DNA of 64,000 bases. It comes from Candidatus Saccharimonadales bacterium (GTDB lineage: Bacteria > Patescibacteriota > Saccharimonadia > Saccharimonadales > UBA10212). Below are positions 20,883 through 59,079 of this stretch, piece by piece. The position numbers were made by a program, and so were the translations under genes. How positions within the stretch are numbered: position 1 is the first letter of the stretch; each line of letters starts with the position of its first letter. The notes under the pieces were generated by a model. That model was not told the origin of the DNA and searched no databases. It was given only the letters and a program-made list of their open reading frames with translations. The stretch is taken from positions 226,717 through 290,716 of the forward strand of contig JBEKOJ010000001.1 of assembly GCA_049521895.1 (NCBI GenBank). The letters are read 5' to 3'.

Positions 20883-21448
20883 TTCTGAGCCTCGGCTAAA
20901 ATTTGTAGTGGCTTAAAACTCATGCGGTGGACGCCCTCTAAAATACCGTGCTGCTCAATCGCCAGCTTGTGGGCGGCCGTACCATAGCCAACATGATTCT
21001 CGAAACCATATGCCGGATAGCGCTTTTTGAGCTTGCCCATATAGCTATCCCGGCGAACTTTAGCAAAAATTCCGGCGGCCGACACAAGCGGGATTAGCAC
21101 GTCGGCGTCAACCAGACACTTAACATTACTAAAGTGCGCCGGTACGTAATTTACCTTGCCATCCATAATAATTTCTTCGTCAATTTGGGCTTTGAGCATC
21201 CTTAGCGCTCTGGCTATGCCTAATCGTAGCGCGATTGCTAAGCCCCGGCTATCTATTTCCGCGACGTTTACCCAGCCCTCGCCAAATTCACAACAACTAC
21301 TTAACGTGTTAAGTATTTGCTGTCTTTGCAACTTGGTCATAAGTTTGGAATCTTTGAGCCCAAGCGGCAAGTCAGCTTTGGCCCGCACTGCTACTACCAG
21401 CAGTGGGCCAGCCCAACAACCCCGCCCCACTTCATCTACCCCTATCAT
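20879..21448 (-). CDS. rnhB: ribonuclease HII
   Basis: 189 aa starting MIGVDEVGRGCWAGPL, with DSK and a later D residue, matching the RNase HII pattern. Confidence 0.9.
   Translation of the reverse strand: MIGVDEVGRGCWAGPLLVVAVRAKADLPLGLKDSKLMTKLQRQQILNTLSSCCEFGEGWVNVAEIDSRGLAIALRLGIARALRMLKAQIDEEIIMDGKVNYVPAHFSNVKCLVDADVLIPLVSAAGIFAKVRRDSYMGKLKKRYPAYGFENHVGYGTAAHKLAIEQHGILEGVHRMSFKPLQILAEAQN
21298..21315. repeat. iterated palindrome copy (TACTTAAC-GT-GTTAAGTA)
   Basis: Perfect 8-bp arms inside rnhB, reading CTT AAC ACG TTA AGT = LNTLS. Confidence 0.7.
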
Positions 21449-21499
21449 AAGTCTAATGCTTGCTCATTTATCACTGCTGGGCTTATTATATCCAACATT

Positions 21500-40482: not shown

Positions 40483-40564
40483 CCCAGTAGTGAGCTTTCG
40501 AGATTATCCGTAAAGCGGATATTTAGCCCGCAAAAGCGGGCTGACTTGAAAGTCTACTACTGGG
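40483..40564 (+). mobile_element. ORF-less CCCAGTAG-terminus element (82 nt, three-way junction form)
   Basis: Sequence: CCCAGTAGTGAGCTTTCGAG...CTTGAAAGTCTACTACTGGG. The internal hairpins are ATCCG-TAAAG-CGGAT and AGCCCGC-AAAA-GCGGGCT. TAAG flanks both sides. Confidence 0.7.
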
Positions 40565-43616: not shown

Positions 43617-43772
43617 CCCAGCAGTGAGCTTGCGAGATTATTCGATTCCCTTGGAGCCGTCAGCTCGTCAGCATCTCTTACGAAGACTGTAAGTCGGGAA
43701 CAGTTATGTTAGCGAGGCCTCGAATAATTAGCTCATGCGAGCGATGAGCTGACTCGAAAGTCTACTGCTGGG
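43617..43772 (+). mobile_element. ORF-less CCCAGCAG-terminus element (156 nt, expanded hairpin)
   Basis: Sequence: CCCAGCAGTGAGCTTGCGAG...CTCGAAAGTCTACTGCTGGG. The termini co-vary (T-A changed to C-G). The hairpins are ATTATTCGA-[69 nt]-TCGAATAAT and AGCTCAT-GCGAGCG-ATGAGCT. TTT flanks both sides, and the right terminus overlaps the rpe stop codon. Confidence 0.7.
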
Positions 43773-44406
43773 TTTCGTCGGCGATGCGTTGCAGAGCCGC
43801 GAAAGCCCGCGCCGGGTCTTCAGCTCTTTGGATATAACCGCCAACGTTTAGTACGTCCACGCCACCATTTATTAGCTCAGCAACATTTTGGTCATTAATA
43901 CCACCGTCCCAGCCCACTTCCAAATCAGGTTTATACTGTTTCAAAATACTTAACTTGTTAAGTAATTTAAGGTCGGCGTGGCTGCCGGTTTGGTAACCTA
44001 AATTACCGGAGAATATCAACACGTGGTCAATACTACTTAGCGCCGGCAGGATTGTTTCAGCCGGTGTCCGTTGCAACAGTGCCACACCAACCCCTACTTC
44101 ATGACGGTGGCAAAAGTTGGCAATATCCTCAAAACCGCCTTCGGCTTCGGCGTGAACTATTATCAGATTTGGCCGGTGCTCCATGATAGTTTGAACAGCT
44201 GGCATTGGATGGCGGTACATGAGATGAAAATCGGCTTTAACCCCCACCGGCCACCAAGCTTGCTCGGGCCTAACGGTACGGCTGGGTGCAAACTGCCCGT
44301 CTGTTAAATCAATCTGGATACGCTGGGCAAAATGGGCTATCTTGGCTATTTGTTGTCTGTATTCTTCTTCGCTGCCAGCTAAAATTGCCGGGCAAATAGT
44401 CGGCAT
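43762..44406 (-). CDS. rpe: ribulose-phosphate 3-epimerase
   Basis: 214 aa with a TIM-barrel pattern (ICPAILA, DLTDG, HLM, VHAE, GWDGG). The last codons, ACC CAG CAG TAG, are contributed by the inserted element terminus. Confidence 0.85.
   Translation of the reverse strand: MPTICPAILAGSEEEYRQQIAKIAHFAQRIQIDLTDGQFAPSRTVRPEQAWWPVGVKADFHLMYRHPMPAVQTIMEHRPNLIIVHAEAEGGFEDIANFCHRHEVGVGVALLQRTPAETILPALSSIDHVLIFSGNLGYQTGSHADLKLLNKLSILKQYKPDLEVGWDGGINDQNVAELINGGVDVLNVGGYIQRAEDPARAFAALQRIADETQQ
43947..43964. repeat. iterated palindrome copy (TACTTAAC-TT-GTTAAGTA)
   Basis: Perfect 8-bp arms inside rpe, reading CTT AAC AAG TTA AGT = LNKLS. Confidence 0.7.
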
Positions 44407-56031: not shown

Positions 56032-56155
56032 CCCAGTAGTAGACTTTCTGTTGGCTATTCGCCAAAACTTACTTACTTCTATATTTTACCTGCCAAGTAT
56101 AGCTTTGTTATATACACTGTTCACTGCGAAACAGCACAGAAAGCTCACTACTGGG
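56032..56155 (-). mobile_element. ORF-less element, apparent internal-deletion derivative of the GIY-YIG copy
   Basis: The minus strand reads CCCAGTAGTGAGCTTTCTGTGCTG...AGCCAACAGAAAGTCTACTACTGGG. The subterminal sequence matches 58349-58661. It is flanked by CATG on one side and TATG on the other, and the TATG holds the rmuC start codon. Confidence 0.7.
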
Positions 56156-57460: not shown

Positions 57461-57547
57461 CCCAGTAGTAGACTTTTGAGCGAGCCCGCATGTCTGCGGG
57501 CTCATATATCCACCGGGGATGGATAATCTCAAAAGCTCACTACTGGG
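57461..57547 (-). mobile_element. ORF-less CCCAGTAG-terminus element (87 nt, three-way junction form)
   Basis: The minus strand reads CCCAGTAGTGAGCTTTTGAG...CTCAAAAGTCTACTACTGGG. The hairpins are ATCCATC-CCC-GGTGGAT and GAGCCCGC-AGACAT-GCGGGCTC. TATAA (TTATA on the plus strand) flanks both sides. Confidence 0.7.
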
Positions 57548-58280: not shown

Positions 58281-58333
58281 GGGCTAAAGCATAAACAAAG
58301 TGCTAATATATTTGCAAATTTGTCGCAAAAATA

Positions 58334-58339
58334 TACAAT
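58334..58339 (+). promoter_or_regulatory. putative -10 box TACAAT (original fur-family promoter, leaderless type)
   Basis: TACAAT-ATTGAT-ATG. This ATG (58346) is now fused in frame to the GIY-YIG ORF. Confidence 0.4.
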
Positions 58340-58345
58340 ATTGAT

Positions 58346-58660
58346 ATGCCTAGTAGTGAGCTTTCTATAGTGTTCTGCTATGTCTACGTTTTATACTCTA
58401 ATGTCAGCAAGAGCTTCTATGTAGGTTTTACGCATGATCTTAAGAAGAGGATTGCAGAACACAATAAGGGCTTAATTTTTTCTACAAAAGGCTATAAGCC
58501 CTGGGAGTTAATTTATTACGAGGCGCATGCTAAAGAGGCAGACGGCAGACGCCGTGAAAAATATCTAAAGACCACGGCAGGGGATAGAGCTTTACATAGA
58601 ATGCTTAGAGGGAAGCTGACTGAGGTGAAAAATTTAAGCCGACAGAAAGTCTACTACTAG
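58346..58660 (+). CDS. GIY-YIG nuclease family protein (small COG2827/UPF0213-like)
   Basis: YVYVLYS-x6-FYVGFT-DLKKRIAEHNKG...ELIYYE...REKYLKT matches the GIY-YIG pattern. The tracked ATG (58346) is the duplicated host start codon, and an internal GTG at 58370 is an alternative start. The stop TAG lies inside the right terminus. Confidence 0.85.
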   Translation: MPSSELSIVFCYVYVLYSNVSKSFYVGFTHDLKKRIAEHNKGLIFSTKGYKPWELIYYEAHAKEADGRRREKYLKTTAGDRALHRMLRGKLTEVKNLSRQKVYY

Positions 58661-58661
58661 G
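58349..58661 (+). mobile_element. ORF-bearing CCTAGTAG-terminus element (GIY-YIG nuclease cargo)
   Basis: CCTAGTAGTGAGCTTTC...GAAAGTCTACTACTAGG encloses a single ORF. A TATG direct duplication flanks it (58345-58348 and 58662-58665). Confidence 0.75.
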
Positions 58662-58662
58662 T

Positions 58663-59079
58663 ATGCAACACAACACTCTTAAAGCGCTTTTAAAGAAAGA
58701 CGGCGCCAGTCTGACTAAGCCACGCAAAATCGTATTTGACCTGTTACTCAACCAGGAGCCACAGAGTATGAAAGTTTTGACCCAGAGGGCTGCCGGCAAA
58801 GTTGACCGGGCGACCGTTTATCGCACCGTGGAGCTATTTGAGCGTTTAGGTATTGTCCACCGCTTAAATATCGGCTGGAAATATAAAATGGAGCTAAGTG
58901 ACGTATTTCATGCCCACCACCACCATTTTTATTGCACCAATTGCAATAAAACATACCCCTTGCCCGCCAACCCTATGCTAGAGACCATGATAGATAGCAC
59001 GGTGGCCAAGGACGGTTTCTCGCCACGCGGCCATCAACTAGAAGTTTACGGCCTATGCGCCCAGTGTTCTCGCGGCTAA
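58663..59079 (+). CDS. Fur family transcriptional regulator (Zur-like by context)
   Basis: 138 aa with a winged helix, then HHHHFYCTNC and CAQC metal sites. It is divergent from zupT. Confidence 0.85.
   Translation: MQHNTLKALLKKDGASLTKPRKIVFDLLLNQEPQSMKVLTQRAAGKVDRATVYRTVELFERLGIVHRLNIGWKYKMELSDVFHAHHHHFYCTNCNKTYPLPANPMLETMIDSTVAKDGFSPRGHQLEVYGLCAQCSRG

What the first reader, a model, noticed from the sequence alone, without database searches (positions are those of the whole stretch)
58349..58661. Small GIY-YIG nuclease gene bounded by inverted termini that also bound four ORF-less elements: a candidate autonomous / non-autonomous mobile family
The element at 58349-58661 starts CCTAGTAGTGAGCTTTC and ends GAAAGTCTACTACTAGG. 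It encloses one ORF with a clear GIY-YIG signature.

The same termini bound four elements that carry no ORF:
- 40483-40564 (82 nt, plus orientation)
- 43617-43772 (156 nt, plus orientation)
- 56032-56155 (124 nt, minus orientation)
- 57461-57547 (87 nt, minus orientation)

Every copy is flanked by a short direct duplication: TATG/TATG, TAAG/TAAG, TTT/TTT, CATG/TATG and TATAA/TATAA. The 56032 copy shares subterminal sequence with the ORF-bearing copy (GAGCTTTCTRT on the left, AGCCRACAGAAAGTC on the right), so it looks like an internal deletion derivative.

Five copies in about 18 kb, in both orientations and all in or at the edges of intergenic DNA, is MITE-like behaviour. GIY-YIG domains are known from homing endonucleases, UvrC/Cho, Slx1 and Penelope-like retroelements. 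I do not know of a described bacterial TIR-bounded, MITE-generating element whose only protein is a ~95-aa stand-alone GIY-YIG nuclease. The closest conceptual analogue is the REP/RAYT pairing.
Basis: partly seen in the sequence, partly recalled or inferred. Interest (0 to 1): 0.9.

Follow-up and report, generated by a model that had tools for sequence, protein, structure and literature searches.

The report
Tiny transposon encoding only a GIY-YIG nuclease
A 313-bp mobile element in a Saccharibacteria genome carries only a ~100-residue GIY-YIG nuclease gene, borrows its start codon from the host gene it lands on and has gene-less miniature copies; if the nuclease moves them, this is a new, exceptionally small kind of transposon.

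Summary
Five elements share the termini CCYAGYAGTGAGC…GTCTACTRCTRGG, and one (58349-58661) is filled by a GIY-YIG ORF.

In other Saccharibacteria/Patescibacteria genomes the same termini bound 34 further complete elements: 71-160 nt without an ORF, or 310-313 nt with the GIY-YIG ORF. Insertions carry a 4-bp target duplication (exact in 24 of 42; target about G|YWWR|C). About 50 orthologous Fur loci lack any family-1 element.

GIY-bearing copies sit at seven different host genes, always at the start codon. The duplicated TATG gives the element its ATG and keeps the host's ATG 2 nt after the GIY stop.

It belongs to a second family (CCCGTTAGA…TCTAACGGG). That family has its own 93-aa GIY-YIG copy in the same genome and a clean filled/empty pair in two close relatives. 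A third family occurs in Gram-negative bacteria.

The protein is a Slx1/UPF0213-type minimal nuclease under purifying selection.

Best reading: a new superfamily of minimal TIR transposons with miniature derivatives, mobilised by a structure-specific GIY-YIG nuclease. Mobility and the nuclease-termini link are shown; the nuclease's catalytic role is inferred. I found no prior description.

The parts
58349..58661 (+). Family-1 GIY-YIG-bearing element (313 bp), termini CCTAGTAGTGAGCTTTC ... GAAAGTCTACTACTAGG
   Evidence: the termini are the best conserved nucleotide stretches among 8 homologous elements
58346..58660 (+). GIY-YIG ORF, 104 aa; its ATG comes from the left target duplication, an alternative in-frame GTG start lies at 58370, and the stop TAG lies inside the right terminus
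58345..58348 (+). Left copy of the 4-bp target duplication TATG; supplies the element's start codon
58662..58665 (+). Right copy of the duplication TATG; its ATG (58663) is the start codon of the Fur-family gene 58663-59079
58312..58339 (+). Host promoter-like site (TTGCAA-16-TACAAT) with a conserved Fur-type box; the ATG lies 7 nt downstream, so the transcript would be leaderless and its first cistron is now the GIY ORF
40483..40564 (+). Family-1 ORF-less element, 82 nt, terminal stem plus two hairpins, duplication TAAG
43617..43772 (+). Family-1 ORF-less element, 156 nt, with a compensatory T>C/A>G change in the termini; its right end supplies the stop codon of ORF 43762-44406 (-)
56032..56155 (-). 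Family-1 ORF-less element, 124 nt, probably an internal-deletion derivative of a GIY-bearing copy; sits at the start codon of RmuC (ATG 56030), flanks CATG/TATG
57461..57547 (-). Family-1 ORF-less element, 87 nt, between the ZIP stop and the YkuD start, duplication TATAA; a conspecific strain carries a rearranged 63-nt version
63129..63231 (-).
63133..63237 (-). 34-aa ORF that starts at the duplicated upstream ATG, runs through the family-2 element and stops (TAA inside the right terminus) 4 nt before the host ATG

Best explanation
These are members of a previously undescribed superfamily of minimal DNA transposons. The full-length form (313 bp here, 272 bp in family 2) is essentially one ORF for an 86-104-residue Slx1/UPF0213-type GIY-YIG nuclease whose first and last codons are the terminal inverted repeats. 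The ORF-less 71-160-nt copies are its non-autonomous miniature derivatives. Shown: insertion makes a 4-bp target duplication at a roughly palindromic site (G|YWWR|C in family 1, A|TGAR in family 2). Shown: the two termini stay complementary through compensatory changes and keep an invariant 3-nt mismatch bubble. Shown: GIY-bearing copies persist only where the duplicated TATG provides an upstream ATG in frame with the element, and the host gene keeps its own ATG 2 nt after the GIY stop. The nuclease is then expressed from the host promoter as the first cistron, and the host gene is presumably translated by coupling. Inferred: a dimer of the nuclease recognises structure (the paired or extruded termini) rather than sequence. 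It would nick after G and before a pyrimidine, both at the element ends (...GGG^Y) and, 4 nt apart, on the two strands of the target. Host polymerase and ligase would then complete joining and fill the gaps.
For: Mobility: the exact 4-bp duplication is present in 24 of 42 elements and within one mismatch in 33 of 42, against a 4.5% null; base -5 is G in 25 and base +5 is C in 22. About 50 Fur orthologue loci lack any family-1 element. L133 is filled and L132 empty, with about 97% identical flanks. Link between nuclease and termini: 614 and 388 protein clusters carry terminus-encoded ends, and P0096 and P0110 read the same nucleotides in another frame. The termini are about 90% conserved at nucleotide level, while synonymous sites of the core are saturated and dN/dS is 0.13-0.21. 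Three families each pair a distinct GIY-YIG subfamily with distinct but related termini. GIY-bearing and ORF-less copies occur in the same genomes. Mobility of the gene-bearing form: it sits at 7 different host genes in 8 species, with ATG on both sides in 8 of the 9 GIY-bearing copies examined, and one contig carries two family-2 copies. Structure-specific nuclease: sequence and fold are closest to UPF0213 proteins and to Slx1, which cuts branched DNA, and far from UvrC. The terminus-encoded tails are predicted with low confidence. Pairing of the termini: compensatory changes at 4 of 19 pairs, including within this one window. No other transposase was seen in about 140 kb of annotated flanks around GIY-bearing copies of families 1 and 2, and no longer element with these termini was found in any held locus.
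Against: There is no biochemical evidence. GIY-YIG enzymes are hydrolases with no known strand-transfer activity, so the joining step is unexplained. A ~90-residue domain has no obvious DNA-binding module. Copies within this genome have diverged (copies 1 and 4 look roughly 80% alike by eye), so recent activity here is not shown. The only strain-level difference found is a rearrangement. The bias toward start codons could reflect selection on survivors rather than targeting. For family 3 the duplication could not be resolved from four copies.
Confidence: 0.55

Rival explanations
1. The repeats are ordinary miniature elements mobilised in trans by an unlinked, conventional (for example DDE) transposase. 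The GIY-YIG gene is then a passenger or a nested selfish endonuclease that colonised some copies.
For: TIRs with a 4-bp duplication at a palindromic target are what DDE families such as IS5 or IS1182 produce (my own knowledge, not tested). Complete genomes were not searchable and the genome scan was truncated. An IS110-type transposase gene lies about 8 kb from one family-3 copy.
Against: Three families each keep a cognate pairing of GIY-YIG subfamily and terminus sequence, across CPR and Gram-negative hosts. The ORF occupies the whole element and overlaps both termini. No transposase lies in the annotated flanks of family 1 and 2 copies. No longer element with these termini was found. Copies with different but compensated termini coexist in one genome, which argues against sequence read-out by a single transposase.
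Confidence: 0.2
2. The elements spread through an RNA intermediate. The transcript folds into the long terminal stem with hairpins, the GIY-YIG nicks the target, and a trans-acting reverse transcriptase primes from the nick, as in Penelope-like elements and their non-autonomous retrozymes.
For: The element strand folds better as RNA than the opposite strand (-49.5 vs -40.0 and -53.8 vs -46.3 kcal/mol), owing to conserved G-U pairs at positions 10 and 12. Several hairpins end in C(UUCG)G tetraloops (L030, L085, L117). GIY-bearing copies are necessarily transcribed with host genes.
Against: No reverse transcriptase lies in or near any copy. The duplication has a fixed length and the target is symmetric, unlike the variable duplications of target-primed reverse transcription. 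In L027 and L036 the interior is flipped relative to the termini, which fits DNA-level palindrome dynamics. No poly-A or 3' tail is present.
Confidence: 0.07
3. The elements are old insertions that are now domesticated. The structured miniatures would act as regulatory or mRNA-structure modules at gene starts, and the GIY-YIG would serve a host function such as repair or maintenance of the palindromes, as proposed for single-copy RAYTs.
For: Interior hairpins keep their architecture while their sequence turns over. The protein is under purifying selection. Prokaryotic Slx1-like proteins have been regarded as vertically inherited (PMC1564403). Copies within this genome are diverged.
Against: GIY-bearing copies sit at seven different host genes in eight species, and one contig carries two. 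The distribution is patchy: no family-1 element in 487 kb from about 80 related populations. A filled/empty difference exists between about 97% identical flanks. This reading explains persistence but not origin, so it is compatible with the best explanation.
Confidence: 0.13

Closest known systems
Bacterial MITEs and their parent insertion sequences (for example Correia/NEMIS elements, IS5- or IS1182-type elements with 4-bp duplications)
   Same: Terminal inverted repeats, fixed short target duplication, palindromic target preference, ORF-less short copies beside a gene-bearing copy with the same ends, mostly intergenic, both orientations, strongly folded transcripts.
   Different: The only ORF is an 86-104-aa GIY-YIG nuclease, not a DDE transposase. 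The gene-bearing form is 272-313 bp, under half the size of the smallest insertion sequences I know of (about 600-700 bp). It has no promoter or start codon of its own in families 1 and 2.
REP/REPIN sequences with RAYT
   Same: Short structured palindromic repeats dispersed between genes, associated with one small nuclease-type gene flanked by the repeats.
   Different: RAYT is an HUH/Y1 enzyme, REPs make no target duplication, and the RAYT gene is single-copy and vertically inherited. Here the gene lies inside the repeats, insertions carry duplications, and gene-bearing copies occupy different loci in different species.
IS200/IS605 and their miniature palindromic derivatives
   Same: Very small elements whose ends are recognised as folded structures; imperfect hairpins with conserved mismatches.
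   Different: IS200/IS605 have no terminal inverted repeats and make no duplication, insert 3' of a fixed tetra- or pentanucleotide and use a Y1 transposase. None of this is seen here.
GIY-YIG homing endonucleases (I-TevI, T4 Seg proteins, group I intron endonucleases)
   Same: A selfish GIY-YIG nuclease gene that relies on host gene expression; weak sequence similarity (TIGR01453, E=1.9e-5, below its cut-off).
   Different: Homing enzymes have C-terminal DNA-binding modules, no inverted repeats and no duplications, and copy themselves only into the cognate allele. According to PMC1564403 they belong to the UvrC-like lineage, not the Slx1-like lineage.
Slx1 / UPF0213 (YhbQ, BH0048, EF2693) stand-alone GIY-YIG nucleases
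   Same: Best sequence and fold matches; minimal domain; Slx1 cuts branched DNA at junctions.
   Different: These have been described as housekeeping and vertically inherited (PMC1564403), and I know of no report that they are bounded by inverted repeats. Slx1 needs a partner (Slx4) and has a RING domain.
Penelope-like retroelements and retrozymes
   Same: A GIY-YIG nuclease in a mobile element with structured-RNA non-autonomous derivatives.
   Different: Penelope-like elements encode a reverse transcriptase and are eukaryotic; no reverse transcriptase is present here.

Membership tests
TIR-type DNA transposon with MITE derivatives (generic definition) | Terminal inverted repeats shared by all copies | tested here: met
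   A 17-20-bp paired terminus in all 5 window copies and 34 further complete copies elsewhere
TIR-type DNA transposon with MITE derivatives (generic definition) | Target-site duplication of fixed length | tested here: met
   4 bp: exact in 24 of 42, within one mismatch in 33 of 42, null 4.5%
TIR-type DNA transposon with MITE derivatives (generic definition) | Presence/absence at orthologous sites | tested here: met
   Fur site free of family-1 elements in about 50 orthologue loci; L133 filled vs L132 empty
TIR-type DNA transposon with MITE derivatives (generic definition) | A gene-bearing copy with the same ends encodes the enzyme that moves them | not testable with these tools
   A gene-bearing copy with the same ends exists for families 1 and 2; catalysis needs an experiment
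DDE-transposase insertion sequences (IS5, IS1182, IS630 and others) | Element encodes a DDE (RNase H-fold) transposase | tested here: not met
   The only ORF is PF01541 GIY-YIG; no longer element with these termini in any held locus
REP/RAYT (REPIN) | Associated gene is an HUH/Y1 transposase, and the repeats lack target duplications | tested here: not met
   The gene is GIY-YIG; duplications are present
IS200/IS605 | Y1 TnpA, subterminal hairpins without inverted termini, no duplication | tested here: not met
GIY-YIG superfamily | GIY and YIG motifs plus conserved Arg and Glu in an alpha/beta core | tested here: met
   PF01541 at E=2.4e-16; Y12, Y14, Y25, G27 and E71 invariant and R35 and H39 nearly invariant; confident model of the core
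Slx1/UPF0213 branch of GIY-YIG | Closest in sequence and fold to Slx1/UPF0213 rather than to UvrC or I-TevI; minimal domain without extra modules | tested here: met
   1zg2 E=3.9e-7, 1ywl, 7wme; Foldseek 1zg2 then nine Slx1 entries at probability 1.0, UvrC at E=0.69
GIY-YIG homing endonucleases | C-terminal DNA-binding domain; homing into the cognate intron-less or gene-less allele only | tested here: not met
   The protein is 86-104 aa with no extra domain; TIGR01453 scores 24.8 bits against a cut-off of 56; copies lie at unrelated loci with duplications
Penelope-like elements | Reverse transcriptase fused or adjacent to the GIY-YIG domain | tested here: not met
   No reverse transcriptase in the element or in annotated flanks
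Any described RNA family (Rfam 15) | Covariance-model match | tested here: not met
   No match at gathering scores in the window; only two chance-level hits elsewhere at E>3

The most novel reading that the evidence does not exclude
A stand-alone Slx1-like GIY-YIG nuclease of about 90 residues is itself the transposase of a widespread superfamily of 272-313-bp elements. These would be the smallest autonomous transposons known and a new mechanistic class of transposase, alongside DDE, HUH, tyrosine, serine, Cas1 and RT/endonuclease enzymes. The nuclease would act by recognising structure at the paired termini. The elements would ensure their own expression, and their harmlessness, by duplicating a host start codon. 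Part of the very large, so far function-less UPF0213/COG2827 family (17,384 clusters at 50% identity) would then be mobile-element genes.
Probability: 0.45. Interest if true: 0.95.

Novelty: categorically new. Interest (0 to 1): 0.88.

Why it matters
If the nuclease moves these elements, several things follow.

- It would add a new enzyme class to the short list of transposases.
- It would push the lower size limit of an autonomous mobile element to under 300 bp.
- It would give a biological role to part of a very large family of small GIY-YIG proteins that has had none.

The start-codon capture is a new way for a parasite to gain expression while leaving the host gene translatable. The duplicated ATG starts the element's ORF, and the ORF's stop lies 2 nt before the host's own ATG, or overlaps it. 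This bears on how ultra-small, gene-dense CPR genomes tolerate mobile DNA.

There are practical consequences too.

- These ORFs and repeats are currently annotated as 'putative endonuclease' or 'excinuclease ABC subunit C', or not annotated at all.
- They alter gene starts and ends. Here they affect Fur, RmuC, the FMN-binding gene and the stop of ORF 43762-44406.
- A minimal structure-guided nuclease with a 4-nt staggered cut could interest tool builders.

Tried and rejected
- **Structured RNA gene or ribozyme.** My by-eye check of the termini against the hammerhead core did not fit. Rfam gave nothing at gathering scores or at E<=5, and there are no tRNAs. Rejected as a known RNA family.
Rejected: across 42 elements only k=4 is enriched.
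- **A 5-bp duplication with a shifted boundary.** I considered this because G often precedes the left duplication. It is better explained by a symmetric target G|YWWR|C (G at -5 in 25 of 42, C at +5 in 22 of 42).
- **The GIY copy is syntenic and vertically inherited, like RAYT.** I suspected this from similar right flanks in L023, L046 and L088. Rejected: the downstream genes differ.
- **L136 'TATGCCTAGCCCACAG' as an excision footprint.** Rejected: L144 shows it is a natural N-terminal variant of Fur.
- **Cohesive-end 'cut and ligate' transposition.** This would require identical duplications in all copies. It fits family 2 (always TGAR) but not family 1.
- **Orthologues of RmuC and YkuD among the Fur-centred loci**, to find empty sites for copies 3 and 4: none present.
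- **Phage (blastn) and plasmid (tblastn) collections:** no match.
- **Viral contigs:** 56 single-terminus hits and no complete element.
- **Ten literature searches** found no description of such an element.
Full report
**1.

- The 17-nt right terminus, at up to 3 mismatches, matches 7 times against 0.03 expected. These are five right ends plus two cross-matches to left ends.
- The left 13-mer at up to 2 mismatches occurs only at the five elements.
- ORF 58346-58660 (104 aa) is a GIY-YIG domain protein (PF01541, E=2.4e-16).
- A covariance model built from 23 family members and run without filters finds no further family-1 copy in the window. There is one marginal hit at 21396-21481 (E=0.11).
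- The neighbouring genes are ordinary: RmuC, a zinc-ribbon protein, a YkuD transpeptidase, a ZIP transporter and a Fur-family regulator.
- GIY-YIG homologues with source names come from Saccharibacteria, so the window is from that group.

**2. The family exists well beyond this window, and the nuclease travels with the termini**

The GIY-YIG protein has 614 homologous clusters. Most are exactly 104 aa.

- They keep MPSSELS at the N-terminus and QKVYY-stop at the C-terminus even at 57-60% identity.
- These ends are the termini read as codons.
- Two homologues (P0096 ...RKSTTGYA, P0110 ...QKFTTG) read the same right-terminus nucleotides in another frame, so the conservation is at the DNA level.

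- It gave 34 complete elements, all in Saccharibacteria, Saccharimonadales or Patescibacteria genomes.
- None lay in the 78 non-CPR loci. None lay in 56 viral loci that matched one terminus by chance.
- Sizes fall in two classes: 71-160 nt without an ORF, and 310-313 nt with the GIY-YIG ORF.
- Three species genomes in this truncated sample hold both classes: PFEG01, JBBDKW01 and CAZUXR01.

Among eight GIY-bearing elements, the terminal 17 nt are the best conserved stretches (0.90-0.91 mean column identity, against 0.62-0.88 inside). Synonymous sites of the core are saturated in most pairs. Where dN/dS can be measured it is 0.13-0.21. The protein is therefore under purifying selection, and the termini are under separate nucleotide-level constraint.

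**3. These are insertions**

- Across 42 family-1 elements, the four bases on either side are identical in 24 and differ at no more than one position in 33. The null rate is 4.5%, and no other repeat length is enriched.
- The duplicated tetramer is mostly Y-W-W-R. The base before it is G in 25 of 42, and the base after it is C in 22 of 42.
- For the GIY-bearing copy, none of the roughly 50 informative Fur orthologue loci (59-86% protein identity) carries a family-1 element.
- In almost all of them the conserved promoter (TTGCAAATTTGTCGCAAT...TATAAT-like) runs straight into the start codon. Four carry a family-2 element at that codon (section 5).
- There is no family-1 element anywhere in 487 kb of those loci, so the family is patchy among lineages.

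**4. Start-codon capture**

GIY-bearing copies lie at seven different host genes in eight species:

- Fur (this window)
- trigger factor
- a 381-aa unknown protein
- a XerC-like recombinase
- FtsA (two species)
- a ComM-like protein
- another unknown protein

In 8 of the 9 GIY-bearing copies examined there is an ATG on both sides.

- The left copy of the duplicated TATG is in frame with CCT AGT AGT GAG... and starts the GIY ORF.
- The ORF ends at the TAG inside the right terminus.
- The right copy, 2 nt later, is the host gene's own start codon.

In the window, the only promoter-like site between 58200 and 58720 is the host's (TTGCAA-16-TACAAT). It ends 7 nt before the first ATG. The transcript is therefore probably leaderless and now begins with the GIY ORF. 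That the element has no start codon or promoter of its own is read directly from the sequence. That the host gene is then translated by termination-reinitiation is inference.

**5. A second family, present in this window, and a third elsewhere**

Four Fur loci carry a different ~110-nt element at the same start codon. Its termini are CCCGTTAGA...TCTAACGGG, and they led to the following.

- *In the window.* There is an ORF-less copy at 63129-63231 (minus strand). It lies at the start codon of the FMN-binding gene. A 34-aa ORF runs from the duplicated upstream ATG to a TAA inside the right terminus, 4 nt before the host ATG.
- *In the same genome.* A 272-bp copy lies about 4 kb beyond the window end, at the start codon of gnd. 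It encodes a 93-aa GIY-YIG protein that is 47% identical to the family-1 protein (L119:19745-20016).
- *Its protein subfamily.* There are 388 clusters, mostly 93 aa, with terminus-encoded M(N/S)PVRA...FLALTG ends. They reach into Microgenomates.
- *Its flanks.* Thirteen independent Saccharibacteria copies, with and without the gene, are all flanked RTGAR-T|...|ATGAR at a host start codon. Some sit inside operons with 4-nt ATGA overlaps on both sides.
- *Copy number.* One 50.6-kb contig carries two gene-bearing copies and a miniature.
- *Filled versus empty site.* L133 reads AAAGCAC ATGAA T[76 nt] ATGAAGAAAACC. L132, with about 97% identical flanks, reads AAAGCAC ATGAAAAAAACC.

A third family has termini CCCCGTGAGATA...TATCTCACGGGG.

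- The units are 279-280 bp and carry their own start codon. The C-terminal YLTG is encoded by the right terminus.
- It has 1,614 protein clusters and occurs in Gram-negative, non-CPR genomes. One source names Verrucomicrobia.
- One copy interrupts a tyrosine-recombinase ORF. Its duplication could not be resolved from four copies.

The three sets of termini share a CCC(C)-GT-AG core. Nuclease subfamily and terminus sequence have therefore diverged together.

**6. The protein**

- Sequence searches of solved structures find only UPF0213 proteins (1zg2, E=3.9e-7; 1ywl) and Slx1 (7wme).
- The AlphaFold model is confident for residues 10-96 (mean pLDDT 82). Confidence is low for residues 1-3 and 97-104, the tails encoded by the termini.
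- Foldseek ranks 1zg2 first and then nine Slx1 entries at probability 1.0, with UvrC far behind at E=0.69.
- The GIY and YIG tyrosines and a Glu are invariant; the Arg and a His are nearly invariant.
- Slx1 is a structure-specific nuclease for branched DNA.
- PMC1564403 describes prokaryotic stand-alone Slx1-like proteins as minimal and vertically inherited. It derives the selfish GIY-YIG enzymes from the UvrC-like lineage. This finding departs from that picture.
- Against 1.84 billion cluster representatives, the family-1 profile finds 17,384 clusters at E<=1e-3. Most are 85-130 aa, and several end in ...YLTG.

**7. The DNA**

- The termini form a 19-pair stem with compensatory changes at four pairs (3/98, 6/95, 17/84, 19/82).
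- These include differences among copies within this one window: CCC...GGG, CCT...AGG and CCCAGC...GCTGGG.
- Positions 10-12 form an invariant G-T, A-C, G-T bubble.
- ORF-less copies fold into this stem plus two hairpins (z-scores -10.8 and -11.6). The hairpin sequences turn over while their pairing is kept.
- In L027 and L036 the interior is inverted relative to the asymmetric termini.
- Compensated termini coexisting in one genome point to recognition of pairing or shape rather than of sequence.

**8. Most likely mechanism (confidence about 0.55)**

*Shown:*

- The elements are mobile insertions with a 4-bp duplication at a symmetric target.
- The GIY-YIG gene and the termini form cognate pairs in three families.
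- Gene-bearing and gene-less copies share ends within genomes.
- The gene-bearing copies use host start codons.

*Inferred:*

- A dimer of the Slx1-like nuclease recognises the paired or extruded termini.
- It nicks after G and before a pyrimidine. That same dinucleotide step is found at both element boundaries (...GGG^Y on each strand) and at both strands of G^YWWR^C.
- Host polymerase and ligase complete the joints and fill the 4-nt gaps.
- The restriction of surviving copies to start codons is probably part target preference (TATG fits YWWR; family 2 always uses TGAR). It is probably also part selection. Only there is the nuclease expressed and the host gene spared.

*Weak points:*

- GIY-YIG enzymes hydrolyse and are not known to join DNA.
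- The protein has no DNA-binding module.
- Copies in this genome are diverged.
- Complete genomes were not searched for an unlinked transposase.

**9. Rivals**

- *A conventional transposase acting in trans, with GIY-YIG as passenger (0.2).* This is hard to square with three cognate families, an ORF that fills the element, and the absence of any longer element or nearby transposase for families 1 and 2.
- *An RNA intermediate with a trans-acting reverse transcriptase (0.07).* It is suggested by G-U pairs and UUCG loops. The fixed, symmetric duplication and the absence of any reverse transcriptase argue against it.
- *Domestication as regulatory structures, with a host-function nuclease (0.13).* This may explain persistence but not origin, and it is compatible with the main reading.

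**10. Comparison and novelty**

The elements behave like miniature inverted-repeat elements with a parent insertion sequence. However, every known parent class was tested and not met: DDE, HUH/Y1 (IS200/IS605, RAYT) and reverse transcriptase/endonuclease (Penelope-like). The features that define homing endonucleases were not met either.

Rfam has no match, and phage and plasmid collections have none. Ten full-text searches, including two recent surveys of prokaryotic MITEs that never mention GIY-YIG (PMC11602168, PMC10969869), found no description. I therefore rate it categorically new. The caveats are that the catalytic role is inferred and that literature outside the held library was not searched.

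Noticed in passing
It is a 103-nt ORF-less member of a second family (CCCGTTAGA...TCTAACGGG) inserted at the start codon of the FMN-binding gene, with a 34-aa ORF running through it from the duplicated ATG.
   Followed up: yes
L119:19745-20016 (minus strand; same genome, about 4 kb beyond the window end): A family-2 GIY-YIG-bearing element (272 bp, 93-aa ORF) at the start codon of gnd. The gene caller of the source assembly did not call it.
   Followed up: yes
L271:9983-10261, L273:9982-10261, L274:9983-10261, L275:9983-10261: A third family (CCCCGTGAGATA...TATCTCACGGGG, 279-280 bp, 87-aa GIY-YIG, 1,614 protein clusters) in Gram-negative non-CPR genomes. The L273 copy splits a tyrosine-recombinase ORF at LLGHS|KDVSTTMIYTHVL. 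Flanks are always T(T/C)A...TAAA, and the target duplication is unresolved.
   Followed up: partly
window 57461-57547 vs L119:9152-9214: A conspecific strain (99% identical GIY protein) has a rearranged 63-nt version of this element. One hairpin and 12 nt of flank are missing, and the ZIP transporter gene now ends inside the element with a different C-terminus.
   Followed up: partly
window 43762-43772: The last three codons and the stop of ORF 43762-44406 (minus strand) are supplied by the right terminus of the 156-nt element, so the insertion replaced the end of a host protein.
   Followed up: no
window 21396-21481 (minus strand): A marginal covariance-model hit (E=0.11) bounded by a 10-bp inverted repeat CCAGCAGTGA...CCACTGCTGG that resembles the family-1 left terminus. 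It may be a decayed relic or chance.
   Followed up: partly
window 58300-58345 and the Fur loci L128-L179: A strongly conserved box TTGCAAATTTGTCGCAAT overlaps the -35 region upstream of Fur orthologues, with the start codon 6-8 nt after the -10 hexamer. This is a likely autoregulated, leaderless Fur/Zur promoter, divergent from the ZIP transporter gene. The GIY ORF would then be under metal-responsive control.
   Followed up: no
L027:5999-6069 and L036:962-1037: In these two ORF-less copies the interior (both hairpins) is the reverse complement of the usual arrangement, while the asymmetric termini keep their orientation. This implies inversion between the inverted subterminal arms.
   Followed up: no
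L210:9055-9291 (minus strand) and L211:12212-12772: Two further GIY-YIG genes lie near family-2 copies. One is a 78-aa ORF flanked by a complex set of 27-nt direct and inverted repeats (GGCCTGCCACAC...). The other is a 186-aa protein with a hydrophobic N-terminal extension fused to the GIY-YIG domain. Neither has family 1-3 termini.
   Followed up: partly
L030, L085, L117 (hairpin 1 of ORF-less family-1 copies): The hairpins are closed by C(TTCG)G, the sequence of the exceptionally stable UUCG RNA tetraloop. This hints that the transcript's fold, not only the DNA, is under selection.
   Followed up: no
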